Source: Deltaproteobacteria bacterium CG11_big_fil_rev_8_21_14_0_20_47_16 (GTDB lineage: Bacteria; UBA10199; GCA-002796325; 1-14-0-20-47-16). From it: a DNA stretch of 64,000 nucleotides. The translations under genes were made by a program, and so were the position numbers. The notes beneath the pieces were generated by a model. That model saw nothing but the letters and a program-made list of their open reading frames with translations. It was not told the DNA's origin and did no database searches. Each line of letters opens with the position of its first letter. Position 1 is the stretch's first letter. Shown in pieces: positions 1 to 60,023 of this stretch. The stretch is taken from contig PCXA01000006.1 in assembly GCA_002796325.1 (NCBI GenBank), forward strand, positions 70,578 through 134,577. The letters run 5' to 3'.

Positions 1-663
1 AATTGTCATATGATGTGGGAACATTCCCAAGTTGGTTGCTCGATAATCATCAAATTGCACCTGATAAAGCACCTTTTTATGTAGGTCATTTTTATACCGA
101 ATCATTTCCTGAGGCAAATTGATACCAGGTGTCAATGACATCACGGCATCACCATCGGGACTGGTCGCCATGCCATCGGGATCCACAAACCACTCTTCAT
201 AGTCTTCACTAAACTGACGCGGTGGCAAGCCTTGCAATAACGCAAAGAATTCAGACAAAGTCCAAGGTAGCCTTGTTAGGCGTGCAATAGATTCATCCGT
301 AGAGTCAGTTTCATACACTCGCCCCTGTTGAGGCAACCACAACTCTAGAGCGTCCAGTTTTAAATTCAGACTGACCAAAATTTCACCCACAGGATCCATT
401 AAGTCTAATCGCATCAAATCAATTGGCTGCGCAAGAACAACACCATCAGAAGTTGTTTTTCCCGGCAAAAAAGGTGCAGCAATTTTAATTTGTGCCCGCA
501 TACTGCGACGCTGACGGGAATATTGATCAACGGTTTTCATGGCCACCTTTAATACACGCTCACTGGATACAGGCTCCCAGTCAACGTGATGTGACCCTGT
601 GGTCGCACATGCCGCCAAACACGTGACCAGAACAACAATCGCACTACTTCTTTTCAAGTGCAT
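1..663 (-). CDS. Lipoprotein, probably outer-membrane lipoprotein insertase LolB (5' complete; 3' end runs off the window)
   Basis: This minus-strand ORF is absent from the track because it has no stop inside the window. Its translation starts MHLKRSSAIVVLVTCLAACATTG, which is a lipoprotein signal with lipobox LAAC. Downstream there is a LolB-like motif, LPWTLSEFFALLQGLP, comparable to E. coli LolB PLNSLRQWILGLPGD. It lies directly downstream of a TPR lipoprotein gene, the same neighbourhood as Pseudomonas lolB. The start overlaps the TPR stop by 20 nt. Confidence 0.5.
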   Translation of the reverse strand, partial: MHLKRSSAIVVLVTCLAACATTGSHHVDWEPVSSERVLKVAMKTVDQYSRQRRSMRAQIKIAAPFLPGKTTSDGVVLAQPIDLMRLDLMDPVGEILVSLNLKLDALELWLPQQGRVYETDSTDESIARLTRLPWTLSEFFALLQGLPPRQFSEDYEEWFVDPDGMATSPDGDAVMSLTPGINLPQEMIRYKNDLHKKVLYQVQFDDYRATNLGMFPHHMTI

Positions 664-2278
664 CGAGCGCCTCCACCATGGCATTCACATTTGCATCATC
701 AGATGGCTTGCCTTGGGCAAGTAAAATTGCCTGACGGTACTGTTCAATTGCCTCTTGATTGCGTTCCATTGCCACATACAGCATAGCCAAGTGACGGTGC
801 ACAACGGCCTCGTTGGGAATACGGCGCACAGCCTGCTCCAAAAGTGTTTGTGCCTTGCCATATTCATTCTTTTTAAAATAGAGCCACCCCAAACTATCTA
901 AAATAAATCCATCGCCAGGCTGCAATTCGGCGGCATGCAATAATAAAACTTCGGCTTCGTCTAGATGCTTCCCTTCTTCTGTCCAGATGTAACCAATATA
1001 ATTCATGGCGCTTACATTGTTGGGTTCCAGTATCAGCACCTTTTGCATCAGCTTCACTGCTTTTGAGGTGTCCTTCATGCGGTCGGTCAGTACGGCGAGG
1101 GTATATAAAATCGAGGCATTATCAGGGAGCGCTTTAACACCCTTTTGTAAAGTAGAACGAGCCGCAGGTAGATTATCTACTTCCTCATAGATTATCGCCA
1201 GAAGTGGATAGAACTCATCCACCTTAGGGGCATGCAAAATTCCGGATTGCAAAACTGCAATAGCTGCATTCAATTGCGACTGGCGGTAAAAATGAAGAGC
1301 ACGTCGCAATACTGCATCCTTATAATAATTGGAGTCAGGGGTAATTTTCTGAAACTGGGCATCGGCCTTGTCAAACTCACCATTCTCTTCGTAAATAACA
1401 CCCAAATAGTAATGCACCTTTGAAGAATTGGGTGTACGCTGCAACACCGCCTCAAGAATCTCAGCTGCTTTGCTATATTGCTTTTCCTGATAGTACAATG
1501 CACTCAAGCGTAACTGCATAGTAATATCATCCACACCATTAGTAGAGGCCTCGTTCAGAATCTCAATCGCTTGCCGGATTTGGTTGTGGTCAACGTAGAG
1601 CTGTGCCATTGATGTATAGACCGACACATTTCGAGGGTCTTGTTCCAGTATCTTACGGTACATTTGAATAGCCAACTGAGGGCGATTGAGCGGTCCACCA
1701 TATGCCGCCCCCATATAATAGTAAGCCACCATGGCATCAGGATCGATATCCAATAACTTCTTCATGAGGGGGATGCTACGCGATGCCTTACCAGTATTCA
1801 TATAAGCCAACCCTAAAAGTGAGTAGGCCTCACGATCGTCTGGCGTTGTGCGAATGACATCTTCTAACAAGGGAACCATTTGCGCAAATTTACTCTGCAC
1901 CGACAACAACCGTGCCAATAACAGCTTGGCTTCGGTCAATTTAGGTGCCAACTCCAAGGCCTTCTTACAATCGTCTTCAGCAAGTTGTAATTGTTGGGCA
2001 GCTGCATACGACATGGCGCGATCATAATAAAGATATGCTGAATCGGGATTGTGCTGAATAGCCGCTGTTAGTTCTGGGATGGCTTTCTGTGGCTGCCCTT
2101 CGAGCGCCAAAATATCCCCTTTCATATAGGCATACAATGAATTGGACTGGGAAATATCTGAAGTAGAAAGCGTTTTAACGGGCATTCCAAAGATCGTGCG
2201 ACTGGGTGTCGTGGCATGCGAATGTGCACACCCTCCACAAAATACAATAGCAGCAATGACTCCCAAAAGTCGCTTCAT
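644..2278 (-). CDS. Secreted TPR-repeat protein
   Basis: The ORF is 579 aa, but the likely start is the internal MKRLLGVIAAIVFCGGCAHS signal peptide, whose ATG is at 2276-2278. The whole length is degenerate TPR repeats of the form AxxxY...G. Confidence 0.8.
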   Translation of the reverse strand: MKRLLGVIAAIVFCGGCAHSHATTPSRTIFGMPVKTLSTSDISQSNSLYAYMKGDILALEGQPQKAIPELTAAIQHNPDSAYLYYDRAMSYAAAQQLQLAEDDCKKALELAPKLTEAKLLLARLLSVQSKFAQMVPLLEDVIRTTPDDREAYSLLGLAYMNTGKASRSIPLMKKLLDIDPDAMVAYYYMGAAYGGPLNRPQLAIQMYRKILEQDPRNVSVYTSMAQLYVDHNQIRQAIEILNEASTNGVDDITMQLRLSALYYQEKQYSKAAEILEAVLQRTPNSSKVHYYLGVIYEENGEFDKADAQFQKITPDSNYYKDAVLRRALHFYRQSQLNAAIAVLQSGILHAPKVDEFYPLLAIIYEEVDNLPAARSTLQKGVKALPDNASILYTLAVLTDRMKDTSKAVKLMQKVLILEPNNVSAMNYIGYIWTEEGKHLDEAEVLLLHAAELQPGDGFILDSLGWLYFKKNEYGKAQTLLEQAVRRIPNEAVVHRHLAMLYVAMERNQEAIEQYRQAILLAQGKPSDDANVNAMVEALDALEKK

Positions 2279-2301: not shown

Positions 2302-3030
2302 CTACGAATGGAAGCAAGCGAAGTATTCCCGGTTTCCATCGGTGCCAGTGATGGGTGAATCGCACACACCAACAAGTGACCACCCTAAATCCGCGGCTAC
2401 AGATAAAACACCATCAATGGCCTGTTTCTGGGCATCATCATCTTTCACAATGCCCCCTTTGCCAATTTTATCAGGGCCCACTTCAAACTGAGGTTTGATT
2501 AGTGCTAACACGGTGGCATGCGGTGCAACCCAGCGTACAAGTTCTGGCAAAACACGTGCGAGTGAAATGAAAGAACAATCAATCACAATAAGCAATGGGG
2601 CATTGGGAAAATGGCTGGGCTGCAATTCTTTTACATGGGTTTTTTCCATCACCACCACACGAGGATCTTCGCGTAGTTTCCAGGCCAATTGATTGGTCCC
2701 CACATCCACGGCATAGACCTTGGCAGCTCCACGCTGAAGCAAACAATCCGTAAACCCACCGGTCGATGACCCAATGTCCGCACAAATGGTATCTTTGGGA
2801 TTAATCTTGAAGTGATCGAGTGCACCCGCCAGCTTTACACCACCGCGCCCGACATAAGGGTGGTCATGCCCTTTGACACGAATCACTGCATCTTCCGCAA
2901 CTTTATGGCCAGATTTTGTAACCGGAACATCATTGACCAACACCAAGCCCGCCATAATCATGGATTGCGCACGTTCACGTGATGGTGCGAGCCCCTTTTC
3001 AACCAACAACTGATCAATGCGCTGTTTCAT
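2302..3030 (-). CDS. tlyA: TlyA-family rRNA 2'-O-methyltransferase (haemolysin A-like)
   Basis: An N-terminal S4 domain (QRIDQLLVEKGLAPSRERAQ) is followed by an FtsJ-like methyltransferase domain (DIGSSTGGFTDCLLQRGAAKVYAVDVG). Length is 242 aa. Confidence 0.9.
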   Translation of the reverse strand: MKQRIDQLLVEKGLAPSRERAQSMIMAGLVLVNDVPVTKSGHKVAEDAVIRVKGHDHPYVGRGGVKLAGALDHFKINPKDTICADIGSSTGGFTDCLLQRGAAKVYAVDVGTNQLAWKLREDPRVVVMEKTHVKELQPSHFPNAPLLIVIDCSFISLARVLPELVRWVAPHATVLALIKPQFEVGPDKIGKGGIVKDDDAQKQAIDGVLSVAADLGWSLVGVCDSPITGTDGNREYFACFHS

Positions 3031-3659
3031 TGGCAGACATTTGTCATGGCCAGGCGGCCAGGTCCATCAAGTTCTGCTTTGGTGGGAGATAGTTGTTTTA
3101 GAAACATCTTGAGCACGCCATCCACAAGAGTATCGGTATAGCCGTCACCCCCATGACCATCATGTGACCGACAACCCGACACGTCTGATTCTGAAAAGTG
3201 ATGTTTGCAATAAAAGATCTCACTTACAGCAATTTTCAAATTATCCTTCAACACAATTGCCAGCGCCAAAGCCACTTGCGCCTTCAACTGATCATTGCGT
3301 TCCGGTACCCACGGTGATTCCCAAAAGTACCAATCCGACACGCTAGCGGTCATTGCCCCCAAACTTTGCGTTTCGGCATCGTAAGTGAAACTGACTTTTC
3401 CATGATTAAAAAGCGGATGTTTGGCGCTGCTATCAAAGGCAACTGTCAATCGGCACTGGCTGAGCGCACAATCAATCGTGAGTGTTGTGGTGTCACCCAC
3501 ATAATGATCTTTGCTATCAACAATGGCGACAAGGTTAGACCCATCCCCGACAGACTCATAATCAACCGCATTACTCGCCACTTCAAAATGCCCGTGGCGA
3601 TAAAAGTCTGCCGAGTTCGGCCTGGTTACGAGATTATATTGAGGTGCTATTTTGGACAT
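3027..3659 (-). CDS. Hypothetical beta-rich protein (about 210 aa) between the RLP gene and tlyA
   Basis: The ORF is in a coding-like frame. The internal start MSKIAPQ is preceded by an AAGGA ribosome-binding site. Its end overlaps the tlyA start by 4 nt (ATGA), suggesting translational coupling. I recognise no motif. Confidence 0.5.
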   Translation of the reverse strand: MSKIAPQYNLVTRPNSADFYRHGHFEVASNAVDYESVGDGSNLVAIVDSKDHYVGDTTTLTIDCALSQCRLTVAFDSSAKHPLFNHGKVSFTYDAETQSLGAMTASVSDWYFWESPWVPERNDQLKAQVALALAIVLKDNLKIAVSEIFYCKHHFSESDVSGCRSHDGHGGDGYTDTLVDGVLKMFLKQLSPTKAELDGPGRLAMTNVCQ

Positions 3660-3714
3660 ATATATCCTTTGACCATATATCGGATCATGTCCCAATTTGT
3701 TGCGTTAAAAAATG

Positions 3715-4896
3715 TTATATTGGAGCAACATTTTTCCACGCCTGATGCAGGCTGGTAGCCCCTGCACGGGGACCTTGTTCATGGCCAAACACCCCACGGC
3801 CTGAAATAAATCCAAAATCGGGGGACCCCACTTTTTGGGCAACCATCGGGAGCGTTTCAGCGGTGTCACTCCCCCCTGGAATGGGTAGCGCTTGGGCAAT
3901 ATTTCCCATCGGTTCCCAACAGGCCCGCACGTTTGCCATCACTTCTTCGTCGCTGCACTGCATGCGCGGGCCAAACCCCGCAATACCAATCCAGTCGCAA
4001 CCCGCCAGTCGCATGAGCTTGGTCCACACAACGGATGCCACCCCAAAATTGGACACGCGGCCGGAGACCGCAACACCGGCAAAATGACCCATCACTGGCA
4101 CTTCGCTGATGCGGCGCAATTGGCGTGCGGCAGATATGCCAGTGCAAATCGGATTGATCATCACGGCATTCGCACCATTTTCAACAGCGGTCTTATATAA
4201 GGATGGCAGGTCGTAAACTTCATCACTAATGCAGGCCAGGTAACATTTAGGTGTGCCCGTTTCCTTTTCAGCGCGCCGGCGCGCAAGACCCGCTGCACGC
4301 GCACGATCCGCCAATGGGGACCAGGTCATATCACCCAGCATTTCATCATCTTTTGCGATGTCCAAGCCGCCCACCCAACTTTCATAGGCGAGTTCGGCAA
4401 ACTGTTCAGGCGGCAGACCCAAATTGGGTTTCACCACACCAATAAAAAAGGGACGGCCTTCAATTTTGAAAATATCGCGCGAACCTTTGATGCCAAATTG
4501 CGGCCCTTCAAATTGTTTAAGATAAGCGTCAGGAAATTCAATATCCATGAGTTTGATAGCCTTGACCATCGGCGCATAGAACGCGCCTTCGCCGGCTACA
4601 GCTGCAATCAAGTTGGGGAGTTTCGCACCAAAATTTTCCCAAGGGTGAGCAATCGTGACGTCTACCACGCCGCTCTTTGCATTCAACGCCACCACCTTTG
4701 CAGCAAATTGAGGGCGCAAATCTTCGGTGGATCCTGGGCGATGCCACTGGGCGGTACTTTGTTCACTGCACAATGAAGCGGCAGCAAACTTAGGGTCGGC
4801 ATCAGTTTCAAAGCGATAGCGCAGCATCACATAGCGCGACAAATCCAGTGTTGTGCGATCTGCAAAAAATCCGGGGATGTCCTGAGTTTCAATCAT
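3715..4896 (-). CDS. RuBisCO large-subunit-like protein (form IV, RLP)
   Basis: The sequence carries RuBisCO large-chain signatures: VKPNLGL (compare IKPKLGL) and GGLDIAKDDE (compare GGLDFTKDDE, with the carbamylated Lys, Asp and Glu present). LAGCDWIGIAG matches LSGGDHIHSGT. The C-terminal region reads PIPGGSD...GRGVFGHEQG. At 393 aa it is short for a true RuBisCO. The second Lys of the KPK motif is replaced by Asn, and no His is visible where RuBisCO His294 would sit, which is typical of RLPs. The start overlaps the ispA stop by 4 nt. Confidence 0.8.
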   Translation of the reverse strand: MIETQDIPGFFADRTTLDLSRYVMLRYRFETDADPKFAAASLCSEQSTAQWHRPGSTEDLRPQFAAKVVALNAKSGVVDVTIAHPWENFGAKLPNLIAAVAGEGAFYAPMVKAIKLMDIEFPDAYLKQFEGPQFGIKGSRDIFKIEGRPFFIGVVKPNLGLPPEQFAELAYESWVGGLDIAKDDEMLGDMTWSPLADRARAAGLARRRAEKETGTPKCYLACISDEVYDLPSLYKTAVENGANAVMINPICTGISAARQLRRISEVPVMGHFAGVAVSGRVSNFGVASVVWTKLMRLAGCDWIGIAGFGPRMQCSDEEVMANVRACWEPMGNIAQALPIPGGSDTAETLPMVAQKVGSPDFGFISGRGVFGHEQGPRAGATSLHQAWKNVAPI

Positions 4897-5789
4897 GATT
4901 TACGTTCCACAATATAATGTGCCAGTTCTGCTAAAATTGAGTGGCGAGGCTGAAACATCGCCAACGATTCAATCGCTTGCGCCATCAAGGCCTGCGCTTG
5001 GGCACGGGATTCTTCTTTCCCCAACAACGCCGGAAATGTGGATTTATGATTTTCCACATCGCTGCCCGCTGGCTTGCCCAATTCTTCGGTTGTTCCTTCA
5101 ATGTCGAGCAAGTCATCGGCAATTTGGAACGCCAACCCCACACTGTCCCCATAGGTTTCCATGGCACCAATTTGCGCGGCAGTTGCACCTGCGAGCTTGG
5201 CCCCACTCACCACCGAATTGACCAACAGCGCACCCGTCTTTAACTCATGCAAGTGTTCGAGTTCATTCACCGTAATTTTTTTATTTTCAGATTCCAAATC
5301 AATCACCTGACCACCCACCATGCCCCGCGCACCTGTTGCAACAGCCATATCGCACAACACTTCAAGACGCCGCTCCACTGGAACAGCATTATGATGCGCG
5401 GCCATAATGCGAAACGCCTCTGCCAACAATCCGTCCCCTGCCAAAACCGCAATCGCTTCACCAAACACTTTGTGATTGGTGGGTTTGCCACGACGCAGAT
5501 CATCGTCATCCATGCATGGCAAATCGTCATGAATCAGTGAAAACGTGTGAATCATTTCCATGGCGCACGCAAATGGCAACACGGATTTTGTCAGTTCTTC
5601 AGATGGCCCTGCTACCGCTTCGGCCGCTGCAAACATGAGCACCGGGCGAATACGCTTGCCACCCGCATCTAGACTATATTTCATGGCTTTGACAATTGTG
5701 GGCGGATAAACTGCGCTTTCGTTCAAGTAAGCATCCAGTGCGGCATCGACAATTTGTTTTTTCTCTGCGAGATAATTTTTAAGTGACAT
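4893..5789 (-). CDS. ispA: Farnesyl-diphosphate synthase / geranyltranstransferase
   Basis: The FARM motif is LIHDDLPCMDDDDLRRGKPT and the SARM motif is FQIADDLLD. Length is 298 aa. Confidence 0.9.
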   Translation of the reverse strand: MSLKNYLAEKKQIVDAALDAYLNESAVYPPTIVKAMKYSLDAGGKRIRPVLMFAAAEAVAGPSEELTKSVLPFACAMEMIHTFSLIHDDLPCMDDDDLRRGKPTNHKVFGEAIAVLAGDGLLAEAFRIMAAHHNAVPVERRLEVLCDMAVATGARGMVGGQVIDLESENKKITVNELEHLHELKTGALLVNSVVSGAKLAGATAAQIGAMETYGDSVGLAFQIADDLLDIEGTTEELGKPAGSDVENHKSTFPALLGKEESRAQAQALMAQAIESLAMFQPRHSILAELAHYIVERKS

Positions 5790-5792
5790 GAT

Positions 5793-6038
5793 TTACTCTT
5801 CGACGTTGAAAGGTTCACGGCTCAGCTGTCCATCTTCCTTTTGAATCAATTTTTCAATTTTACCTTGAGCAGCTGTCAGTGCGGATTCACATTTTCGCGC
5901 CCACGCAACACCCTCTTCGTACATTTTGAGAGAATCATCTAATGTAAGCGTGCCTGATTCCAATTTTTTGACAGCGCCTTCTAATTGCTCGAGCGATTTT
6001 TCAAATGAAACGGTTTCTTCTGTTTTTTTGGCCGACAT
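5793..6038 (-). CDS. xseB: Exodeoxyribonuclease VII small subunit
   Basis: This is an 81-aa protein with the FEKSLEQLEGAVKKLESG...LDDSLKMYEEG pattern characteristic of XseB. Confidence 0.9.
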   Translation of the reverse strand: MSAKKTEETVSFEKSLEQLEGAVKKLESGTLTLDDSLKMYEEGVAWARKCESALTAAQGKIEKLIQKEDGQLSREPFNVEE

Positions 6039-6045
6039 AATGACT

Positions 6046-6083
6046 ACCCCCTCACCCTAACCCTCTCCCACTGGGAGAGGGGA
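6046..6083. repeat. Palindromic GC-rich repeat element, copy 1 (CCCCCTCACCC-N3-CCCTCTCCC-N4-GGGAGAGGG), intergenic between xseA and xseB
   Basis: A 9-bp stem CCCTCTCCC/GGGAGAGGG with a 4-nt loop, with a CCCCCTCACCC block beside it. The same architecture recurs at 26331-26365 and 26742-26778. Confidence 0.7.
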
Positions 6084-6084
6084 A

Positions 6085-7353
6085 TTAAATCACCTTTGTT
6101 TCAACATGCCCTTTTTCCAAGCGCACATCCAAGACATCGCCGGGCTTTAACTGCGCTGCATCGCGTACCGTGGCGCCATCTTTTTGAACAACGGCATAGC
6201 CTTTGGCCAACACCGCGAGCGGTGACAAATGTTGCAACTGCCCCGCCCACTGGGCGACTGCCTGACGGCGATCCCCTATGCCACGCCGCATGGCCATCTG
6301 CAAGCGCTCCCTTAAACTATCCACCCACTGCAATCCATCGGTAATCCGCTGCGTGGGAAACCGCAACCGCTGGCGCAAATGGTGCAGGCGTTCAGATGCA
6401 CGCGTAATCGCACCGCGCAACCCTTGATCCAATCGGCGCTGGATATTCCCAATCCCCTGCAAGAGTTCTGCACGCACCGGTACCGCAATTTCGGCCGCTG
6501 CTGACGGCGTGGGCGCACGAACATCCGCCACAAAATCCGCAATCGTAAAATCAATTTCGTGTCCCACGGCGCTAATAATTGGTGTTGTCGCTGCAAAAAT
6601 AGCACGTGCAACCACTTCTTCATTAAATGCCCATAAGTCTTCAATCGACCCGCCACCACGCCCCACAATCATGACATCCACATCACCGCGCGCATCTAGC
6701 AATTCAATCGCCCGCGCAATTTCAGCAGCAGAACCATCCCCTTGTACTTTTGCAGGCACCAGACAAATATCCACCGAGGGGAAACGACGCCGTAGCACCG
6801 TGCAAATATCGCGCACCGCAGCCCCCGTGGGCGACGTTACCACACCCACACGCCGTGGCATGTATGGAATTGGTTTCTTTTTGGATTTGTCAAAGAGTCC
6901 TTCGTCAGCAAGCTTCTTCTTAAGCTGTTCGAACGCGAGTTGTAACGCCCCAACCCCTTTGGGTTCACAGTAATCGATGATGATTTGATAACTGCCACGC
7001 GGCGGATAGACCGACAACTTGCCGTGGCAAATGAGTTCCATGCCCTGTTCGACTTTAAACTTCACAGCGCTATTCACACCACGGAACATGACTGCACTGA
7101 GTTGACTGTTGGCGTCCTTCAGAGAAAAATACCAATGCCCCGACGATGCCGGCCGCCAATTGGACACCTCGCCACAGACCCAGACGTCATCGAACGTGCC
7201 TTCCAGAATATTGCGAATCCCTGTGGTAATTTCGGTGACAGATAGAACACGCGGCCCTGCAGGCTTGGGGTCCTCAACCACTTCCGAATGCGCACTATCC
7301 TCTTCGGGCAGCGGCGTTTCGTTCATTAAATCAAACAGGTCCTGTTGACTCAT
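6085..7353 (-). CDS. xseA: Exodeoxyribonuclease VII large subunit
   Basis: An N-terminal OB-fold is followed by the catalytic domain, 422 aa in all. It sits immediately upstream of xseB. Confidence 0.9.
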   Translation of the reverse strand: MSQQDLFDLMNETPLPEEDSAHSEVVEDPKPAGPRVLSVTEITTGIRNILEGTFDDVWVCGEVSNWRPASSGHWYFSLKDANSQLSAVMFRGVNSAVKFKVEQGMELICHGKLSVYPPRGSYQIIIDYCEPKGVGALQLAFEQLKKKLADEGLFDKSKKKPIPYMPRRVGVVTSPTGAAVRDICTVLRRRFPSVDICLVPAKVQGDGSAAEIARAIELLDARGDVDVMIVGRGGGSIEDLWAFNEEVVARAIFAATTPIISAVGHEIDFTIADFVADVRAPTPSAAAEIAVPVRAELLQGIGNIQRRLDQGLRGAITRASERLHHLRQRLRFPTQRITDGLQWVDSLRERLQMAMRRGIGDRRQAVAQWAGQLQHLSPLAVLAKGYAVVQKDGATVRDAAQLKPGDVLDVRLEKGHVETKVI

Positions 7354-7394
7354 ATCGTTCTGTGAATAGTCTGAGGAGTATCGGGAGACAATCT

Positions 7395-8726
7395 TTATTT
7401 AGAGCGCGGTGCTTCGAGAACGGCACGGAGTTGCTTCATATCGGAACCCGCGACCTTGAGGCGCTTCACGTCGACTTCAACGTGACGACGGTTCATGCGG
7501 ACACCATAGCGTGCAAAGATGTCTGCCACTTCTTCGTACCGCTCACCCACCGAATTGCGCACCGATTCAAACCCCAAGCGCGCCGCCTTCAGACGATTAC
7601 TGAAGATCAGTGGATTCAAGTCGAAGAATGCCATGTCGGATGAGCTGGGTTCAATCAAGATGATATCGCCGTGAAAATGCGGATCATACGCATACTGCTC
7701 AATCATATGATGTAGACGGCTATGGAAAACCGTTCGGAAGATCTGACTTAAGATGGTAATGACACCGTTATCTGCCAAGCGGCGCCCCTCACTTACAAAC
7801 TCATTTTTCTCACGCAAAAATTGCAGCATGACTTTATTGTCCACAGGTCTAAATGGATTGTAGCAAACAATCAATTCTGCACCGTGGGACACCGCCACAT
7901 CAAAGTGCGCGGTTTCCAACACATTCCCATCCACATAATCCACGCCGTGAATACGTGCAGGCTTATAAAACCCGGGCATGGCGGTCGATGCCTGTACTGC
8001 TTCTGAAATACTCACATCACTTTTTTCATCGGGGCCAAAAATAACACGATCGGCACCATCCAATGTCATTGCACAAATGTAGAGCTTCTTCCCTGTCATC
8101 TCTTCCATTTTTTTAAAATTGTTCGACAGATGATTGCGTTCAATATTGTGACGCAAATACCGTTCAATACCTGAGTTGTCGAAGAACCCTGATGGCAACA
8201 AACTCAGCAAGCTCGGCATGGGTCGCGTCGCAATGGCACGCGTAACCGTGCGCATCATGGCATCCAAGTGCTCCGCATTGGGTTGCAGCGCCAAACGCCA
8301 GACCTCTGCCGCCAATTGAGGACCAAATTCGCCAAAACCAGACAAAACATCTTTAATCGCACGCGGCACAAACATGGCCTGTTCCACCAAAAAATTGATG
8401 GGACGCAGAATCATTTCTTTCCAGTTGGGCTGATAATAATGCCACGGAGCAAGCTGAGAATAATGTTTGGAACGACCATCCAAACTTTTAAGAACTTCAG
8501 AGGGCGTAATGCCGGCCGCAATGGGCGCCGCAATAAAACTGCCCGAACTAATCCCAACATAAATATCGAACTTGTTCACATTGAAATTGGAAAAATAATC
8601 ATCCAATGCGCGCAAACCACCCGCCTTAAACGCAGCGCCAGTGACTGCGCCACCTGCCAAAATCAGTGCTTTTTTGGCATCACGTGGATTTTTGCGTTTA
8701 TTTTTGCGAACAATCGTCAGTCCCAT
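7395..8726 (-). CDS. Patatin-like phospholipase family protein
   Basis: There is a glycine-rich oxyanion motif (LILAGGAVTGAAFKAGGLRAL), a GxSxG nucleophile (GISSGS) and a DG(N) motif (DYVDGN). A C-terminal extension of about 150 aa follows. Confidence 0.8.
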   Translation of the reverse strand: MGLTIVRKNKRKNPRDAKKALILAGGAVTGAAFKAGGLRALDDYFSNFNVNKFDIYVGISSGSFIAAPIAAGITPSEVLKSLDGRSKHYSQLAPWHYYQPNWKEMILRPINFLVEQAMFVPRAIKDVLSGFGEFGPQLAAEVWRLALQPNAEHLDAMMRTVTRAIATRPMPSLLSLLPSGFFDNSGIERYLRHNIERNHLSNNFKKMEEMTGKKLYICAMTLDGADRVIFGPDEKSDVSISEAVQASTAMPGFYKPARIHGVDYVDGNVLETAHFDVAVSHGAELIVCYNPFRPVDNKVMLQFLREKNEFVSEGRRLADNGVITILSQIFRTVFHSRLHHMIEQYAYDPHFHGDIILIEPSSSDMAFFDLNPLIFSNRLKAARLGFESVRNSVGERYEEVADIFARYGVRMNRRHVEVDVKRLKVAGSDMKQLRAVLEAPRSK

Positions 8727-9938
8727 TCAAGCCCCCAATCGCGCAAGACGTGTCTTTATATCTTTCGCACCATTTTTGTCGAGCTTCAATGCCTTTTCAT
8801 ATTCTACAATCGCGGTGGCACGATCTCCTTGCCATTCCGCAATAACCCCCAACCAATAGTGAGAGGCCGACGACCAAATCTGGATGGGGTGACTGCGCAG
8901 ATACATGTTCAACTGATCTTTTGCACGCACTGCAATATCATCTGGAATTTTTGCGCCCGCGAGTGGCACGCCCGATGCGTCTGATTTAACATATGGCATC
9001 AGACTACTCGTGGCCATCCAATACAAACTGCGTGTTAACTCTGGATCCTGCGCAAACAACTGTGCAAAAATGTCATAGCAATCTTGGTAGCGTTTTTGAA
9101 ACCACGCAATTTCCCCCAATGCCTGCCGTGTCAGCACATTGCGTGGATATTTTGCCGTCAGCACATTTAACGTCGCAATTGCCTGATCGTACTGCTTCAT
9201 TTCCATTTGCATATATGCCAAATTGGCACGCGCTAAATCCTGCACATATTTTCCGTCATGCATGACCTTTTCCACCTTGGCCATACCCGTTGCGCGCTGA
9301 TCACTAAAGAATGGTAACCATCTAAATCGCTGTGTCACCACCGAGCGCCAAAATTCATACATACCAACACCCATTTCGGCATCAACAAAATTAGGGTTCA
9401 GCCACATGAGCCGTTTGTATGTACGCATCGATCGAATCGCACCACCCAAACCTTGTAACCACTTATCGCGACGTGCATCAAAGAATCCCTTCATGCCAAA
9501 CCCAGAACCACAAACAAACATATCCCAATCCGTGGGACCGCTTGTTATAGGGGCTTGCGTCGCCCCCTCCACCGGCAAAGCCGGCGGAGCCTCCCCCTCA
9601 CCGCCGCTGTGCGGCTGACGATTACCCCGCAGTCGCGCATCACACAACGCAGTCATTTTATTTTCAGCAGCGTCATATTGTTTGGTGAATCGAAAGTCGC
9701 GATTCTCAAACATGCGGGTCTGCCATAGGGCCATTTCACCAAATGCACCCGCAGGGGAATCTGGATAGTCTTGCAAGAGTTGCCGGAAGAGCGTTAGAGC
9801 TGCACCATAATCCCGCGCCATAATCAGATGTTCGCCCTGAACACTACGGGCAATCAGATCGGCGTTATCGGCCGCAACTACTTGATTTGAAAGGATAATT
9901 AGAAAGGCCCCCAAGGCCCCAGCCACACAAAATCGCAT
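8727..9938 (-). CDS. Secreted TPR-like / hypothetical protein
   Basis: A signal peptide (MRFCVAGALGAFLIILSNQVVAA) precedes TPR-like helical repeats. The stop abuts the patatin start. Confidence 0.5.
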   Translation of the reverse strand: MRFCVAGALGAFLIILSNQVVAADNADLIARSVQGEHLIMARDYGAALTLFRQLLQDYPDSPAGAFGEMALWQTRMFENRDFRFTKQYDAAENKMTALCDARLRGNRQPHSGGEGEAPPALPVEGATQAPITSGPTDWDMFVCGSGFGMKGFFDARRDKWLQGLGGAIRSMRTYKRLMWLNPNFVDAEMGVGMYEFWRSVVTQRFRWLPFFSDQRATGMAKVEKVMHDGKYVQDLARANLAYMQMEMKQYDQAIATLNVLTAKYPRNVLTRQALGEIAWFQKRYQDCYDIFAQLFAQDPELTRSLYWMATSSLMPYVKSDASGVPLAGAKIPDDIAVRAKDQLNMYLRSHPIQIWSSASHYWLGVIAEWQGDRATAIVEYEKALKLDKNGAKDIKTRLARLGA

Positions 9939-9979
9939 CTTACCATTTTACGTGTGAATACACCGACTTGCAACCCGCT

Positions 9980-11704
9980 TTATTGTGCCATCAAACGCGT
10001 TTCGGCGTTATCCAAAATCGGCAATAGAGGATCAAAAATGGGGTTGTGCAGTATATCAATTTCGACACGCAAGGCCGTAACCAACTCCTGGAGACATGGC
10101 CCTGCCCCAATGCTCTTCAGAATACCCTGTAGTAACTGAACAGGCGCTCGGCCGTCCATTACCATACCAATGACGGCGTCTTTCAATAAAGTTGCAACAC
10201 GTACATCGGATGTTGAATACAAATCAGTCAGCGCAAGGATTGCCTCATGGTCCCCCTCGACCACCTTTGCAATCAGTTGTTTTGCAAAGTTCATTGATTC
10301 TGCAGGATGAAGCGTAATGTAGCGCATCAATGTTGCCACCTCGCTGGAAACAATGACTTCCACAGGACGCAGACCTTCAGGTGCTGTACTCATTTCGGCC
10401 AGACGGCCCAACATCACCACAATGGTTGATTGATGGTGTGGAGAATCTTTGTTTAATTCCTTTAAAACACTGAGTGCCGTTTGGGCCATTTGATCTGTAC
10501 CCGATGCAACCTTGTATAAGGCGTCAATCGCCCCTGTTACCCCATACCGTGCAAATAATCCCAGTGACTGGATATCCCTTGCAATCGGTGTATGCGCACC
10601 TTTCAGAATGTCTCGTGCCAGAATAGCGCCACGCCCCGCTTTAATATCCATCACAGTTACATCATTTGCTACTGCAGGCTCTGCAACGGTCACAACACAT
10701 TGCCTACGCTCCGGTTCCAAACGATACAACGCTTCTTTCGCTGGATCACCAGCAGTTTCCATAAGCGTTACAATGTCTCTATATAGAGAAGTACTACGGC
10801 TCTCATTAGCAATGCTCACAAGGTCATCCCATGGCACATGTAGCCAGAAATCGGGATCGCGTGTCATGGTCACAATCAATGCAGAGCGATACTGCGGCAG
10901 CCGATCCAAGAGCCGCGCCAATGCCCATGCAACTTGCGTATTTCCACTACGCGCCAAAGAAGAGAGCACATAGATCGCATCATCTGAGATTGTACCTGTG
11001 TCCACAACCGCCTTAATGAACATCCTCATGTCTACAACCAATGTCGCAGGTTTCAAAATCAACCATGTCCGCACAAATGGAATCAGCTCTGGTGAAGACC
11101 GACTCAAGAATACACCAACGCTTTCACGAGACATCGTGCCATCAATGGCTTGTTGAGCCATTTGTTCTGGGGTGAGTCGTATTTTGGGCACAACCACCTC
11201 TGGGAAAGTTCCAGATTCTACTGCGGCTGCCGCCGTAACACGCGCCTCTGCAGCAACATTCTGACGTTGAATTGCCGCCTCGCGCTCAACGGCAAACTCA
11301 CGGCCATAACGCGCACCAATACCAATGAAGAAAGTGCCTGTCAGATATTGTGTAAACTCGCGCCAATTACGCGGAGGCGGCGCAAGCAAATCGTTGTCCC
11401 AACCTATCCATTGATTCACAACAACGTGCGGCAATCCACCTGTGACCGTGTTGATTCCCCCATAAACAATGTGGTTCACAATGGTGGGTACACGGGCAAC
11501 ACCATCCCAAACACCATAGTAATGACGAAACACCCCGGACCACGCGGCATTCTGACCCAGGTAATCATCAACACCCAAAATATATTTAAAAGTTAACTCT
11601 GGAAAAGCGAGGATCCCCGTCACAGAATCTACAAGGCCATCTGCACACTGCGCGGCGATCTCTTTGGGAGGAATCAAAAATCCGTTTCGAACTGGCGCTA
11701 CCAT
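9980..11704 (-). CDS. Hypothetical protein, 574 aa, HEAT/ARM-like helical C-terminal half
   Basis: This is a long ORF with coding-like composition. I see no catalytic motif. Confidence 0.5.
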   Translation of the reverse strand: MVAPVRNGFLIPPKEIAAQCADGLVDSVTGILAFPELTFKYILGVDDYLGQNAAWSGVFRHYYGVWDGVARVPTIVNHIVYGGINTVTGGLPHVVVNQWIGWDNDLLAPPPRNWREFTQYLTGTFFIGIGARYGREFAVEREAAIQRQNVAAEARVTAAAAVESGTFPEVVVPKIRLTPEQMAQQAIDGTMSRESVGVFLSRSSPELIPFVRTWLILKPATLVVDMRMFIKAVVDTGTISDDAIYVLSSLARSGNTQVAWALARLLDRLPQYRSALIVTMTRDPDFWLHVPWDDLVSIANESRSTSLYRDIVTLMETAGDPAKEALYRLEPERRQCVVTVAEPAVANDVTVMDIKAGRGAILARDILKGAHTPIARDIQSLGLFARYGVTGAIDALYKVASGTDQMAQTALSVLKELNKDSPHHQSTIVVMLGRLAEMSTAPEGLRPVEVIVSSEVATLMRYITLHPAESMNFAKQLIAKVVEGDHEAILALTDLYSTSDVRVATLLKDAVIGMVMDGRAPVQLLQGILKSIGAGPCLQELVTALRVEIDILHNPIFDPLLPILDNAETRLMAQ

Positions 11705-13609: not shown

Positions 13610-14221
13610 TCACTTTGGCGCAGTTCTGCCAGGTTTGCCCTGGCGCTTCTTAAGTTCCGCCAGCACATCCTGCCACGGAACCTCTGCCGCTTCGAGCAAC
13701 ACAATTAAATGAAACATCAAATCTGCAGCTTCCGATGCAGTGCGTTCATGCCCTTCTTCAAGCACTGCACGCGCTACTTCTTCAGCTTCTTCCATGACTT
13801 TATCACCAATATGGGCCGCCCCCTGGTTAAATAATGTGGTGGTATAAGACCGTTCAGGCCGTTCCTTATTACGGATGCGCGCAATTTCTAAAACATGTGC
13901 CAGCACATGACAGTCTGCATCTTCGGCATCAGCAAAGCAGCTTGCAGTACCTTTGTGACACGTGTGACCGTGGGGATTAGCCAATACGAGTAACGCGTCA
14001 TGGTCACAGTCTTCATGAATCGATACCAAATCCAGAAAGTGACCCGAGGTTTCGCCTTTGGTCCACAAGCGATTCTTGCTGCGACTAAAAAAAGTAACAC
14101 ACTTATCTCGAATCGTCTTTTGGTAAGCAGCTTCATCCATATACCCCAACATCAATACACGTCCTGTTTTGGCGTCTTGAACAATTGCCGGCACCAAACC
14201 CTTTGAGAAATCAACCGTCAT
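13610..14221 (-). CDS. hisI: Bifunctional phosphoribosyl-AMP cyclohydrolase / phosphoribosyl-ATP pyrophosphatase
   Basis: The N-terminal half matches HisI ([11 protein letters not shown]...TKGETSGH) and the C-terminal half matches HisE ([10 protein letters not shown]...EAADLMFHL). Confidence 0.9.
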
Positions 14222-14973
14222 AATCGCACCCCTACTCCTTCGCGCTTTAAATATTCTTTTGTTTGATGAATACTCAATGTACCAAAGTGAAATACGGATG
14301 CTGCAAGCACTGCATCTGCACCACCTTTCACAACCGCATCTCTAAAATGAGATAATTCACCTGCACCACCCGACGCAATCACGGGCACCGACACGGCATC
14401 GCTCATTTGCCGAAGCAAGGTGCAATCAAACCCACTCTTTTGTCCATCTTGGTCCATAGAAGTAAGCAGAATTTCCCCAGCACCCAATGCAACGGCCTCG
14501 CGTGCCCAAGTCATTACATCTTTTCCTGTGGCAGTACGACCCCCATGGGTGAACACTTCGTAATGATCGCCAACACGCTTGGCATCAATCGCCACCACAG
14601 CACATTGACTGCCGCATAACGATGCCACATCTGATATTAACTTTGGATTGGCAACAGCTGCTGTGTTCATACCCACCTTATCGGCACCCGCACGCAGAAG
14701 CGCACGCGCATCATCACGCGACCGCACGCCGCCACCGACAGTGAATGGGATTGCAATACTATCGGCCACACGCTCCACCATTTCAATGAGCGTTCCACGT
14801 CCTTCGTGTGATGCAGAGATATCCAGAAAAACCAATTCATCCGCACCTGCTTCACTATAGGCCCTGCCCAAACTGACGGGATCACCTGCATCGACCAAAT
14901 TAACAAATGACACACCTTTGACCACGCGGCCATCTTTGACATCCAGACACGGAATGATGCGTTTGGTTAGCAT
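14218..14973 (-). CDS. hisF: Imidazole glycerol phosphate synthase cyclase subunit
   Basis: The opening [20 protein letters not shown] is the HisF signature. Confidence 0.95.
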
Positions 14974-15704
14974 GCCGTTTCTCCTGCGACCTTAAGACAG
15001 TCAGCCAACTGCAAACGCCCTTCGGCCAAGGCCTTGCCAACAATGACTGCTGTTGCACCCGACTGATGAAGTGAGCGAATATCATCCAGTGTGGTCACAC
15101 CACCTGCGGCAACCGCTTTGAAATTTTTATTGGCCATATTGGCGATTGCATCACACTGAAAGGGGCTTACCGAAGTCAACGTGCCATCGCGTGCCACGTC
15201 GGTTAAAATGAGCCATGATATTTTTTCGCGCTGAAGCATTGGTACACAGCTTTCCAAACTGGCGTCTCCACCCGCCAACCAGCCGCGCGTTAGGACCTGT
15301 CCATGGCGATGATCCAATGAAACCATAATACGATCGGATCCAAAACTAGAAATAAGTGCGGTCAAAATCTCAGGCGTTTCAATTGCGGCCGTGCTCAAGA
15401 TGACGCGTGCCACTCCGGCATCCAAATATGCAGCGGCCTGTTCCAGCGACCGAATACCACCACCCACCTGAACAGATACATCGGGGACCGTTGCCAACTG
15501 CAAAATAAGTGATTGGTTCACCGGTTGCCCCTGCTTGGCACCATCCAAGTCCACCACGTGCACCGTAGACACACCAGCGTCCTTATAGCGCCCCATCACC
15601 GTTTCCGGCGAATCACCATAGGTGGTCACTTGATCATACTGGCCTTGAGTCAGGCGCACGCACTGACCACCAATCACATCAATTGCGGGAAAAACTTCCA
15701 TCAC
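14967..15704 (-). CDS. hisA: ProFAR isomerase
   Basis: It has a HisA-type TIM-barrel sequence ([13 protein letters not shown]...GGGIRS) and sits in the operon position expected between hisH and hisF. Confidence 0.9.
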
Positions 15705-50311: not shown

Positions 50312-50320
50312 AAAAGTAAT

Positions 50321-51664: not shown

Positions 51665-51669
51665 AAAAG

Positions 51670-57773: not shown

Positions 57774-57782
57774 GGAGGCTTT

Positions 57783-60021: not shown

Positions 60022-60023
60022 TC

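What the first reader, a model, noticed from the sequence alone, without database searches (positions are those of the whole stretch)
2302..7353. RuBisCO-like protein (plus an unknown 210-aa protein) sits where dxs sits in the conserved xseA-xseB-ispA-dxs-tlyA block
The sequence shows the order xseA, xseB, ispA, RLP, a 210-aa unknown protein, tlyA, all on one strand. The ispA/RLP and unknown/tlyA junctions overlap by 4 nt. In E. coli the operon is xseB-ispA-dxs, and in Bacillus subtilis it is xseA-xseB-ispA-dxs-tlyA (yqxC). Here the dxs slot holds a form-IV RuBisCO-like protein instead. The only biochemically characterised link between an RLP and isoprenoid metabolism is the Rhodospirillum rubrum MTA-isoprenoid shunt, where an RLP plus a cupin sulfurylase turn methylthioribulose-1-P into 1-deoxyxylulose-5-P. 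That product is exactly what Dxs makes. The synteny therefore suggests, as an inference, that this RLP and perhaps the adjacent unknown protein supply or replace DXP synthesis for ispA. Alternatively they may represent an undescribed RLP-dependent route tied to isoprenoid metabolism.
Basis: partly seen in the sequence, partly recalled or inferred. Interest (0 to 1): 0.75.

Follow-up and report, generated by a model that had tools for sequence, protein, structure and literature searches.

The report
Photo-type RuBisCO-like protein in dxs slot
A non-carboxylating RuBisCO relative of the long-mysterious "Photo" type sits, in an uncultured non-phototrophic bacterium, exactly where the first enzyme of isoprenoid precursor synthesis (dxs) normally sits; comparison with relatives gives new, testable clues to what this enzyme family does, but does not show that it replaces dxs.

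Summary
On the minus strand lie xseA, xseB, ispA, a 393-aa RuBisCO-like protein (RLP), a 210-aa orphan and tlyA, with ATGA overlaps at ispA/RLP and orphan/tlyA.

The RLP is not a carboxylase, not MtnW, and not the R. rubrum DeepYkr isomerase. It is a form IV-Photo-type RLP, with E about 1e-135 to the C. tepidum RLP and R. palustris RLP2 and the same active-site substitutions. It belongs to a non-phototroph subclade.

In 13 of 14 related MAG loci the RLP follows ispA in the dxs slot. Family-wide, the conserved partner is YjbQ, found directly upstream in 65 of 69 non-Chlorobiaceae loci. YjbQ is missing in this window. The 210-aa protein is a fast-evolving, sublineage-specific orphan with no detectable fold.

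Two other contexts arose independently: IPP isomerase downstream in Chromatiaceae, and an LsrF-like thiolase plus aldolase/SDR in Chlorobiaceae. Both fit 1-deoxypentulose-5-phosphate-type chemistry.

Published work shows that R. palustris RLP2 does not run the MTA-isoprenoid shunt. Whether this genome has dxs could not be tested.

Verdict: partly supported. This is a new variant of a known family of unknown function, and a good experimental lead.

The parts
6085..7353 (-). xseA, exodeoxyribonuclease VII large subunit; first gene of the conserved block
   Evidence: TIGR00237 scores 499.5 bits against a cut-off of 180; PF02601 and PF13742 also match.
5793..6038 (-). xseB, exodeoxyribonuclease VII small subunit
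   Evidence: TIGR01280 scores 73.1 bits against a cut-off of 35; NF002140 scores 78.4 against 71.
4893..5789 (-). ispA, farnesyl diphosphate synthase; its TGA stop overlaps the ATG of the RLP (ATGA)
   Evidence: NF045485 (FPPsyn) scores 379.6 bits against a cut-off of 275; PF00348 matches at 3e-62. The junction was read.
3715..4896 (-). Form IV-Photo-type RuBisCO-like protein, 393 aa (GenBank PIR20953.1), in the position where dxs usually lies
   Evidence: PDB matches: 2qyg 7e-137 and 1tel 2.9e-135, with the next best at 1e-43. Against RuBisCO numbering: K175, K201, D203, E204, H294, E60 and W66 are kept; K177N, R295F, H327G, K334R, S379G, G381S, G404R, T65Q and N123E are changed. All NCBIfam equivalogs score below their cut-offs. 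The NJ tree places it in a non-phototroph subclade.
3027..3659 (-). 210-aa orphan protein (PIR20952.1, COV45_03565); AAGGA ribosome-binding site before the ATG; its stop overlaps the tlyA start (ATGA). It belongs to a small, fast-evolving family found only downstream of the RLP in the window's sublineage.
   Evidence: No Pfam, NCBIfam or PDB hit. The 5.8-billion-protein search found only the protein itself. The exhaustive search of representatives added only P0123, at 29% identity and E about 1e-3. P0123 sits after an 81%-identical RLP in L167. A homologue at 26-33% identity sits after the RLP in L003. The AF2 model has pLDDT 36.6. hhalign against YjbQ gives probability 0.1%.
2302..3030 (-). 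tlyA, 23S/16S rRNA cytidine-2'-O-methyltransferase family; last gene of the canonical block
   Evidence: TIGR00478 scores 247.1 bits against a cut-off of 185.8; PF01728 and PF01479 match.
7395..8726 (-). Patatin-like phospholipase immediately upstream of xseA; part of the lineage-specific conserved backbone
   Evidence: PF01734 matches at 6e-21. It occupies the same position in L001, L003, L015, L019, L028 and L043.
644..2278 (-). TPR-repeat (lipo)protein downstream of tlyA; conserved backbone gene. The likely start is the internal ATG of MKRLLGV...; the GTG-extended ORF runs to 2383.
   Evidence: Many TPR Pfam hits. The same position is occupied in L003, L004, L006, L009-L012, L015 and L028 (cluster 7).

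Best explanation
SHOWN. The 393-aa protein is a form IV RuBisCO-like protein of the Photo type (the C. tepidum RLP / R. palustris RLP2 family), from a subclade carried by non-phototrophic, uncultured 'delta/Myxococcota-like' bacteria. It keeps the carbamate lysine, the metal ligands (K201, D203, E204) and the enolising base K175. It has lost the residues that bind the second phosphate and stabilise the carboxylation intermediate (R295F, H327G, K334R, K177N, S379G). It is therefore an enolising isomerase or tautomerase for a monophosphorylated ketose, not a carboxylase. In this lineage the gene lies directly after ispA in the slot that dxs normally fills, and in this window the two genes are translationally coupled (in most relatives YjbQ sits between ispA and the RLP). 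It is co-oriented in one block with xseAB and tlyA, with no terminator-like site inside the block.

INFERRED. The ancestral unit is a two-gene cassette, YjbQ-RLP, that became lodged between ispA and tlyA. The window's sublineage then lost the adjacent yjbQ and gained a fast-evolving orphan gene downstream.

INFERRED MECHANISM, my committed guess. Photo-type RLPs carry out a 1,3-proton-transfer isomerisation of a 5-deoxy or 5-substituted pentulose 1-phosphate. The most economical candidate is 5-deoxyribulose-1-P, derived from the radical-SAM by-product 5'-deoxyadenosine. The product would be a 1-deoxypentulose 5-phosphate, that is DXP or its C3 epimer. In most lineages YjbQ would act on the step before or after. 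Placing the gene behind ispA (or next to idi in Chromatiaceae) then makes regulatory sense. Chlorobiaceae would instead degrade the product through an SDR and an LsrF-like thiolase. On this reading the route supplements Dxs and does not replace it.
For: Clade and active site:
- Clade assignment.
- Active-site pattern identical to the C. tepidum RLP.

Slot conservation:
- ispA lies directly upstream in 13 of 14 non-phototroph MAG loci, plus L001, L003 and L004. This holds even where tlyA or xseA have moved (L013, L043, L049).
- ATGA coupling of ispA and the RLP.
- The canonical block carries dxs in that slot.

YjbQ as the conserved partner:
- YjbQ lies directly upstream of the RLP in 65 of 69 assessable non-Chlorobiaceae loci.
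- The RLP-linked YjbQ subfamily is found essentially only in RLP-bearing taxa.

Independent contexts:
- A type 1 IPP isomerase lies downstream of the RLP in 10 of 29 Chromatiaceae-type loci (NF002995, 178 bits against a cut-off of 127), in the order pufLMC-YjbQ-RLP-idi-lipA.
- In Chlorobiaceae, 9 of 9 loci have an LsrF-like 3-hydroxy-5-phosphonooxypentane-2,4-dione thiolase (NF006081, 508 bits against 297) directly upstream of the RLP. The loci in which the wider flanks could be read also carry a bifunctional class II aldolase/SDR upstream of the thiolase and a second SDR downstream of the RLP.

Literature:
- R. palustris RLP2 slowly converts 5-methylthioribulose-1-P to 1-methylthioxylulose-5-P in vitro. 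The chemistry is therefore accessible to this active site, although that compound is not the physiological substrate (PMC5893883).
Against: - No biochemical evidence exists for any physiological substrate of a Photo-type RLP. The R. palustris rlp2 deletion has no phenotype in MTA or sulfur metabolism (PMC5893883).
- The xseA-xseB-ispA-dxs-tlyA block is itself functionally heterogeneous, so membership of it is weak evidence of shared function.
- The ispA context traces to essentially one evolutionary event in one lineage.
- idi in Chromatiaceae may simply belong to the neighbouring photosynthesis gene cluster.
- Ectothiorhodospira, alphaproteobacterial and Gemmatimonadota loci show no isoprenoid gene next to YjbQ-RLP.
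- Other lineages carry unrelated small membrane proteins between ispA and dxs, and 7 of 54 loci have ispA-tlyA directly adjacent. The slot is therefore permissive and dxs often lives elsewhere.
- Phototrophs with Photo RLPs are known to have a canonical Dxs (background knowledge, not tested here).
- Presence or absence of dxs, MEP genes or 5'-dAdo/MTA salvage genes in this genome could not be checked.
Confidence: 0.35

Rival explanations
1. Incidental synteny. A YjbQ-RLP cassette of unknown function unrelated to isoprenoids (for example the stress or sulfur-related role inferred for C. tepidum) landed in a permissive intergenic site of a housekeeping operon after dxs had moved elsewhere. It stayed there through operon inertia.
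For: - The block already mixes unrelated functions: exonuclease VII, FPP synthase and an rRNA methyltransferase.
- 7 of 54 IspA-anchored loci have ispA-tlyA with no dxs, and 5 of 54 carry other inserts.
- All ispA-linked RLPs share one backbone (patatin-xseAB-ispA...tlyA-TPR-SBP), which points to a single insertion event.
- Most phototroph loci have no isoprenoid gene nearby.
- The rlp2 deletion in R. palustris has no MTA-isoprenoid phenotype (PMC5893883).
Against: - ispA-(YjbQ)-RLP adjacency survives rearrangements that broke the RLP-tlyA and xseA links (L013, L043, L049), across RLP divergence down to about 54% identity.
- The ispA and RLP genes are translationally coupled in this window.
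- Two further independent contexts point to C5 deoxy-ketose-phosphate or isoprenoid chemistry: idi in Chromatiaceae and the LsrF-like thiolase in Chlorobiaceae.
Confidence: 0.42
2. [quoted passage not shown]
For: The RLP occupies the dxs slot and no dxs is present in the 64-kb window or in any of the 85 RLP-centred loci. The Photo-type RLP2 has trace MTRu-1P isomerase activity in vitro (PMC5893883).
Against: - The RLP is in the Photo clade, not DeepYkr.
- RLP2 was shown in vivo and in vitro not to take part in the shunt.
- The 210-aa protein has no cupin or any other Pfam signal. It is absent from most relatives, which carry YjbQ instead, and it evolves too fast for a core enzyme (26-33% identity between genomes whose RLPs are 76-81% identical).
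- No mtnP, mtnA or cupin gene lies in the window.
Confidence: 0.06
3. The protein is a bona fide form III RuBisCO (carboxylase), or a YkrW/MtnW enolase of the classical methionine salvage pathway.
For: The best NCBIfam rows by E-value are rubisco_III (2.6e-58) and PRK04208. The GenBank name is 'ribulose 1,5-bisphosphate carboxylase'.
Against: - Every NCBIfam score is far below its cut-off: 197.9 against 497 for form III; 113.9 against 513.6 and 148.9 against 409 for MtnW.
- Nine catalytic or phosphate-binding residues are replaced, including K177, R295, H327, K334 and S379.
- PDB similarity to MtnW (2oek) is 127 bits, against 460 bits to Photo RLPs.
- No mtnX, mtnB or mtnD gene is nearby.
Confidence: 0.02

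Closest known systems
Form IV-Photo RuBisCO-like proteins (Chlorobaculum tepidum RLP, PDB 1TEL/1YKW; Rhodopseudomonas palustris RLP2, PDB 2QYG)
   Same: About 53-56% identity over the full length. The pattern of retained and replaced active-site residues is identical. The N-terminal CSEQSTAQW motif and the KDDE motif are invariant.
   Different: - It comes from a non-phototroph MAG and falls in a sister subclade.
- It is about 35-40 residues shorter, lacking an N-domain loop (alignment).
- It lies after ispA in the dxs slot and not next to puf genes or sugar-phosphate genes.
- It lacks the adjacent YjbQ found in 65 of 69 non-Chlorobiaceae relatives.
- The physiological function of the whole family is still unknown (PMC5893883).
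R. rubrum / R. palustris RLP1 (IV-DeepYkr) plus cupin methylsulfurylase: the MTA-isoprenoid shunt
   Same: Same superfamily. That is the only characterised RLP route ending in DXP. The proposed chemistry (1,3-isomerisation of a 5-substituted ribulose-1-P to a 1-substituted xylulose-5-P) is the model for my inferred mechanism.
   Different: It is a different clade (94 bits to 3qfw against 460 bits to Photo RLPs). No cupin partner is present. Photo-type RLP2 was shown not to function in the shunt. If the substrate were the 5-deoxy analogue, no sulfurylase would be needed.
Canonical xseA-xseB-ispA-dxs-tlyA gene block (E. coli xseB-ispA-dxs; Bacillus-type five-gene block)
   Same: Same gene order and strand for xseA, xseB, ispA and tlyA.
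   Different: The dxs position is filled by the RLP plus an orphan here, and by YjbQ plus RLP in relatives. No dxs lies within 64 kb.
YjbQ/UPF0047 ('secondary thiamine-phosphate synthase') family
   Same: It is the conserved upstream partner of Photo-type RLPs. Its known promiscuous activities touch thiamine and PLP synthesis, both of which consume DXP (PMC3010111).
   Different: It is absent from this window and was not detected on the window's 816-kb contig (the second search is limited by its word index). Its physiological function is unknown. It is unrelated to the 210-aa orphan.

Membership tests
Form IV-Photo RLP | Closest solved or characterised relatives are the C. tepidum RLP and R. 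palustris RLP2, well separated from other RLP clades | tested here: met
   2qyg 7e-137 and 1tel 2.9e-135, against 1e-43 for the next clade. The NJ tree groups it with Photo RLPs, far from 3nwr and 2cwx.
Form IV-Photo RLP | Characteristic active-site pattern: K175, K201, D203, E204 and H294 kept; K177N, R295F, H327 lost, K334R, S379G | tested here: met
   Residue-by-residue alignment to 1tel, 2qyg and the P. horikoshii RuBisCO 2cwx; these columns are invariant in a 15-sequence alignment.
Form IV-Photo RLP | Host is an anoxygenic phototroph (origin of the clade name) | tested here: inconclusive
   No puf, bch or crt genes in the 64-kb window or in the 17 loci of the same subclade. The record names say Deltaproteobacteria, Myxococcota or Pseudomonadota MAGs.
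Form IV-Photo RLP | YjbQ gene immediately upstream (an empirical feature found here: 65 of 69 non-Chlorobiaceae loci) | tested here: not met
   The ispA stop overlaps the RLP start, leaving no room. There is no YjbQ by tblastn anywhere in the window.
Bona fide RuBisCO (form III) | All catalytic and both phosphate-binding residues conserved; score above the family cut-off | tested here: not met
   TIGR03326 scores 197.9 against a cut-off of 497.45. Nine key residues are substituted.
IV-YkrW / MtnW DK-MTP-1P enolase | Score above the MtnW equivalog cut-off; mtnX, mtnB or mtnD context | tested here: not met
   TIGR03332 scores 113.9 against 513.6; NF007095 scores 148.9 against 409. No mtn genes appeared among the window ORFs scanned.
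IV-DeepYkr RLP / MTA-isoprenoid shunt | Orthology to R. rubrum RLP / R. palustris RLP1, with an adjacent cupin 1-methylthioxylulose-5-P methylsulfurylase | tested here: not met
   Only 94 bits to 3qfw; that 3qfw is the R. palustris RLP1-type structure is my recollection. No cupin domain in either neighbour. The literature places Photo RLP outside the shunt (PMC5893883).
IV-DeepYkr RLP / MTA-isoprenoid shunt | Enzyme converts 5-methylthioribulose-1-P to 1-methylthioxylulose-5-P at physiological rates | not testable with these tools
   This needs an enzyme assay. The published RLP2 rate is negligible.
OiaX 3-oxo-isoapionate-4-P decarboxylase RLPs | Score above the NF042437 cut-off | tested here: not met
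   174.9 bits against a cut-off of 700.
xseA-xseB-ispA-dxs-tlyA conserved block | Order and orientation of xseA, xseB, ispA and tlyA | tested here: met
   compared with 19 five-gene loci.
xseA-xseB-ispA-dxs-tlyA conserved block | dxs between ispA and tlyA | tested here: not met
   tblastn with E. coli Dxs finds nothing in the window or in 85 RLP loci.
Functional replacement of Dxs | The genome lacks dxs but keeps DXP-consuming pathways (dxr-ispH, thiG, pdxJ) | not testable with these tools
   Only 64 kb of an 816-kb contig is held.

The most novel reading that the evidence does not exclude
Photo-type RLPs, normally together with YjbQ, form a previously unrecognised salvage route. It would convert the 5-deoxypentulose-1-phosphate derived from the radical-SAM by-product 5'-deoxyadenosine directly into 1-deoxy-D-xylulose-5-phosphate. 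In this non-phototrophic lineage the route would have displaced dxs from the ispA operon. If the genome lacks dxs, the route could even be the sole DXP source, with the orphan 210-aa protein substituting for YjbQ. That would assign a function to the IV-Photo family, which has had none since it was first described.
Probability: 0.15. Interest if true: 0.88.

Novelty: new variant of a known kind. Interest (0 to 1): 0.6.

Why it matters
The IV-Photo RuBisCO-like proteins have solved structures and knockout phenotypes, but their biochemical function was still described as unknown in the 2018 study read here, and no later assignment turned up in the searchable literature.

This window belongs to a non-phototroph branch of that family whose gene sits, translationally coupled, behind FPP synthase in the place of DXP synthase.

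Three other contexts add to this: the near-universal YjbQ partner, idi in Chromatiaceae, and the LsrF-like thiolase with aldolase/SDR in Chlorobiaceae. Together they narrow the substrate search to monophosphorylated 1-deoxy or 5-deoxy C5 ketoses.

That turns an open question into a handful of direct enzyme assays. If the route is confirmed, it would add a second RLP-based, Dxs-independent entry into DXP for isoprenoid, thiamine and PLP synthesis, and it would give YjbQ/UPF0047 a physiological role.

Tried and rejected
1. True RuBisCO, MtnW or OiaX. Rejected on NCBIfam cut-offs and active-site residues.
2. DeepYkr-type shunt enzyme. Rejected on clade placement, the absence of a cupin and published RLP2 data.
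3. Fold and function of the 210-aa protein.
- Pfam, NCBIfam and PDB sequence searches were empty.
- The 5.8-billion-protein search found only the protein itself.
- The exhaustive 1.84-billion-representative search gave one marginal relative.
- The AF2 model had pLDDT 36.6, so it was unusable and no fold search was run.
- hhalign against YjbQ gave probability 0.1%.
4. dxs, yajO or YjbQ in the window or in the 85 RLP loci: none found.
5. MEP, MVA or mtn genes among the window ORFs scanned: none found. The last two calls used E <= 1e-30, so weak hits were not listed.
6. YjbQ elsewhere on the window's contig. No hit had longest_contig = 816089, but the search is limited by its word index, so this is inconclusive.
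7. Finding the window's own genome in genome contigs. It is not there; the best hit is 60% identical.
It served as a control for the canonical block, not as a sister-group test.
9. Literature. No paper in the searchable library links Photo RLP with YjbQ/UPF0047, LsrF, 5-deoxyribulose or gene-neighbourhood evidence for isoprenoids. Tabita 2007 and Erb 2012 are not held. My recollection that Rhodobacter has dxsA downstream of pufX could not be verified and is given no weight.

Full report
OBSERVATION

The six genes are on the minus strand exactly as described:
- xseA 6085-7353
- xseB 5793-6038
- ispA 4893-5789
- a 393-aa RuBisCO-family protein, 3715-4896
- an unknown protein, 3027-3659
- tlyA 2302-3030

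Pfam and NCBIfam confirm each flanking gene above its curated cut-off. The RuBisCO-family protein has both RuBisCO large-chain domains (PF00016 1.1e-38, PF02788 2.3e-08). The unknown protein hits nothing.

I read the junctions directly. The ispA TGA overlaps the RLP ATG, and the unknown's TGA overlaps the tlyA ATG; both are ATGA. The unknown's ATG at 3659 has an AAGGA ribosome-binding site 6 nt upstream. No terminator-like site lies inside the block.

The reference arrangement is real. E. coli has xseB-ispA-dxs. Among 54 assessable IspA-anchored metagenome loci:
- 23 have ispA-dxs adjacent, and 19 of these continue into tlyA;
- 5 have an insert before dxs;
- 7 have ispA-tlyA directly adjacent;
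- 19 have some other arrangement downstream of ispA;
- none has an RLP.

WHAT THE RLP IS

Every NCBIfam equivalog scores far below its cut-off: form III 197.9 against 497, OiaX 174.9 against 700, and MtnW 113.9 against 513.6.

Against PDB sequences the protein matches R. palustris RLP2 (2qyg, 7e-137) and the C. tepidum RLP (1tel/1ykw, about 3e-135). The next clade scores only 1e-43, MtnW (2oek) 6e-36 and 3qfw 9e-26.

I aligned it residue by residue with these proteins and with the genuine P. horikoshii RuBisCO. In spinach numbering:
- Retained: E60, W66, K175, K201, D203, E204, H294 and G403.
- Changed: T65Q, N123E, K177N, R295F, H327G, K334R, S379G, G381S and G404R.

This is the same pattern as in the C. 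tepidum RLP, and these columns are invariant in a 15-sequence alignment of relatives. The protein is therefore a form IV-Photo-type RLP. It keeps the enolisation machinery but has lost the second phosphate site and the carboxylation residues.

The source record is a Crystal-Geyser-type MAG named 'Deltaproteobacteria bacterium CG11_big_fil_rev...'. The protein is PIR20953.1 on an 816-kb contig.

An NJ tree of 86 family members with two outgroups puts the window protein in a subclade made only of non-phototroph MAG sequences. This subclade is sister to the classical phototroph Photo RLPs.

GENE CONTEXT ACROSS THE FAMILY

I fetched three close relatives by exact-protein look-up and 80 species-representative loci by a genome scan. 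I then mapped their neighbours with tblastn and clustering. Four results stand out.

1. ispA context. In the non-phototroph MAGs, 13 of 14 loci have ispA directly upstream. The backbone is shared: patatin-xseA-xseB-ispA-[YjbQ]-RLP-tlyA-TPR-...-SBP. The ispA-RLP link persists even where tlyA or xseA have moved (L013, L043, L049).

2. YjbQ. Across Chromatiaceae, Ectothiorhodospira, Alphaproteobacteria, Gemmatimonadota, Chloroherpetonaceae and the non-phototroph MAGs, a YjbQ/UPF0047 gene lies immediately upstream of the RLP in 65 of 69 assessable loci. It matches TIGR00149 at 101 bits against a cut-off of 67.75. A search with the RLP-linked YjbQ returns almost only proteins from RLP-bearing taxa. 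These include Chlorobiaceae, where the gene is unlinked.

3. Chromatiaceae. In 10 of 29 loci the order is pufL/M-pufC-YjbQ-RLP-idi-lipA-DUF218. The idi product is a type 1 IPP isomerase above cut-off.

4. Chlorobiaceae. In 9 of 9 loci an LsrF-like 3-hydroxy-5-phosphonooxypentane-2,4-dione thiolase (508 bits against 297) lies directly upstream of the RLP. In the loci where the wider flanks could be read, a bifunctional class II aldolase/SDR precedes the thiolase and a second SDR follows the RLP.

The window's own sublineage (window, L001, L003, L167) is the exception to the YjbQ rule. There is no room for YjbQ between ispA and the RLP. No YjbQ is found anywhere in the 64 kb. None was detected on the 816-kb contig, although that search is sensitivity-limited.

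THE 210-aa PROTEIN

This protein is an orphan:
- The word-indexed search of 5.8 billion proteins found only the protein itself.
- The exhaustive search of 1.84 billion representatives added only one marginal relative, P0123 (29% identity, E about 1e-3).
- P0123 lies directly after an 81%-identical RLP and is followed by an ORF with a similar motif, probably a paralogue.
- A homologue at 26-33% identity follows the RLP in L003.

The family shares two cysteines and a PLF...FTFD motif, but it diverges far faster than its neighbours. There is no Pfam, NCBIfam or PDB signal. hhalign against YjbQ gives probability 0.1%. The AlphaFold model is unusable (pLDDT 36.6), so the cupin and isomerase question cannot be answered by fold.

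Its restriction to one sublineage and its rate of change argue against a core catalytic partner.

LITERATURE

Miller et al. 2018 (PMC5893883) report the following:
- R. palustris RLP1 (DeepYkr) runs the MTA-isoprenoid shunt with the cupin.
- The Photo-type RLP2 does not, either in vivo or in vitro.
- RLP2 converts only a trace of 5-methylthioribulose-1-P to 1-methylthioxylulose-5-P over long incubations.
- Its function remains unknown.

YjbQ's physiological role is also unknown. Its known promiscuous rescues concern thiamine phosphate synthesis and a PLP-pathway block (PMC3010111).

I found no searchable paper linking Photo RLPs to YjbQ, LsrF, 5-deoxyribulose or isoprenoid gene neighbourhoods. 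The two key subscription papers could not be opened.

INTERPRETATION

Three things are shown: the clade identity, the non-carboxylase active site, and the conserved placement in the dxs slot.

I infer that a YjbQ-RLP cassette was inserted once between ispA and tlyA and was retained. YjbQ was later lost in cis, and an orphan gene was gained in the window's sublineage.

My committed mechanistic guess (about one in three) is that Photo RLPs isomerise a 5-deoxy or 5-substituted pentulose-1-phosphate into a 1-deoxypentulose-5-phosphate. With 5-deoxyribulose-1-P, derived from 5'-deoxyadenosine, this would give DXP directly, with no need for a sulfurylase. Five observations fit this guess:
- the loss of the second phosphate site, with a hydrophobic replacement (R295F);
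- the trace activity of RLP2 on the methylthio analogue;
- the LsrF-like thiolase and SDRs in Chlorobiaceae, whose substrates are oxidised DXP-like C5 phosphates;
- idi in Chromatiaceae;
- the ispA/dxs-slot placement in this lineage.

The main rival is about equally likely: the synteny is incidental. The block is functionally mixed anyway. The slot is permissive, since other inserts occur and dxs is often elsewhere. The ispA link is a single historical event. idi may simply belong to the photosynthesis cluster.

Whether this genome has dxs is the decisive unknown and could not be tested here.

NOVELTY

The protein is a member of a known family, IV-Photo, but in a new setting. It comes from a non-phototroph subclade, sits in the dxs slot, and lacks the otherwise near-universal YjbQ partner. 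I did not find the YjbQ-RLP pairing or the three lineage-specific contexts described in the literature I could search. Together they make the open question of IV-Photo function directly testable.

Noticed in passing
L006-L085 (genome loci), e.g. L024 7561-9215, L014 7567-9221, L056 7560-9212: A YjbQ/UPF0047 gene lies immediately upstream of the IV-Photo RLP in 65 of 69 assessable non-Chlorobiaceae loci, across Gammaproteobacteria, Alphaproteobacteria, Gemmatimonadota, Chloroherpetonaceae and non-phototroph MAGs. This is a conserved two-gene module, and I could not find it described.
   Followed up: yes
L024, L030, L038, L058, L071, L017, L031, L036, L076 (RLP at about 8001-9220; idi about 9300-9900): In Chromatiaceae the order is pufL/M-pufC-YjbQ-RLP-idi (type 1 IPP isomerase)-lipA-DUF218, all on one strand. 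The RLP module therefore sits at the edge of the photosynthesis gene cluster, next to an isoprenoid gene.
   Followed up: partly
L062, L073, L079, L080, L084, L085 (about 4800-10700): In Chlorobiaceae the RLP is embedded in a four-gene cluster: a bifunctional class II aldolase/SDR (705 aa), an LsrF-like 3-hydroxy-5-phosphonooxypentane-2,4-dione thiolase, the RLP and an SDR. This suggests a catabolic route for a C5 deoxy-ketose phosphate. Their YjbQ orthologue is elsewhere on the same contig.
   Followed up: partly
L167 1157-2250; L001 7233-8619: The orphan family downstream of the RLP appears as two tandem, highly diverged copies in some relatives. In L167 the following ORF carries a motif similar to that of the orphan family.
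   Followed up: partly
window 7395-8726 and 8727-9938: A patatin-like phospholipase and a TPR protein lie upstream of xseA and are conserved in position throughout the RLP-bearing MAG lineage. The backbone extends well beyond the canonical five-gene block.
   Followed up: partly
L121 8664-9293, L159 7854-9649, L141 4571-5164, L144 7863-8333: Other bacteria carry small membrane proteins between ispA and dxs: one of about 150 aa with an SGGMPSSHS motif, and one of about 200 aa with multiple membrane spans. The slot is therefore a recurrent insertion point.
   Followed up: no
window 13610-20757 (minus strand): A complete, compact histidine operon, hisG-D-C-B-H-A-F-IE, with overlapping or abutting reading frames.
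   Followed up: no
window 48989-53034 (minus strand): Three tandem ORFs of similar size (440, 447 and 454 aa) have no NCBIfam hit at E <= 1e-30. They may be a paralogous array. They were not examined further.
   Followed up: no
window 25742-30884 (minus strand): A 653-aa protein with only a C-terminal beta-phosphoglucomutase-like HAD domain is followed by a periplasmic sugar-binding-protein homologue and a 739-aa sensor histidine kinase. This is an unusual sensory cluster.
   Followed up: no
window 36975-40229 and 60012-62570; 33161-36580: Two large Ser/Thr protein kinases (1084 and 852 aa) and a 1139-aa subtilase-like protein. This fits a Myxococcota-like or delta-like lifestyle.
   Followed up: no
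window 57186-59039: A lexA/umuD-like repressor is directly followed by a DinB/UmuC-family translesion polymerase, forming an SOS cassette.
   Followed up: no
L086 2162-3136 (E. coli K-12): RefSeq now names yajO, the gene next to dxs in E. coli, '1-deoxyxylulose-5-phosphate synthase YajO'. This is a reminder that alternative, non-Dxs routes to DXP already have a precedent next to this operon.
   Followed up: no
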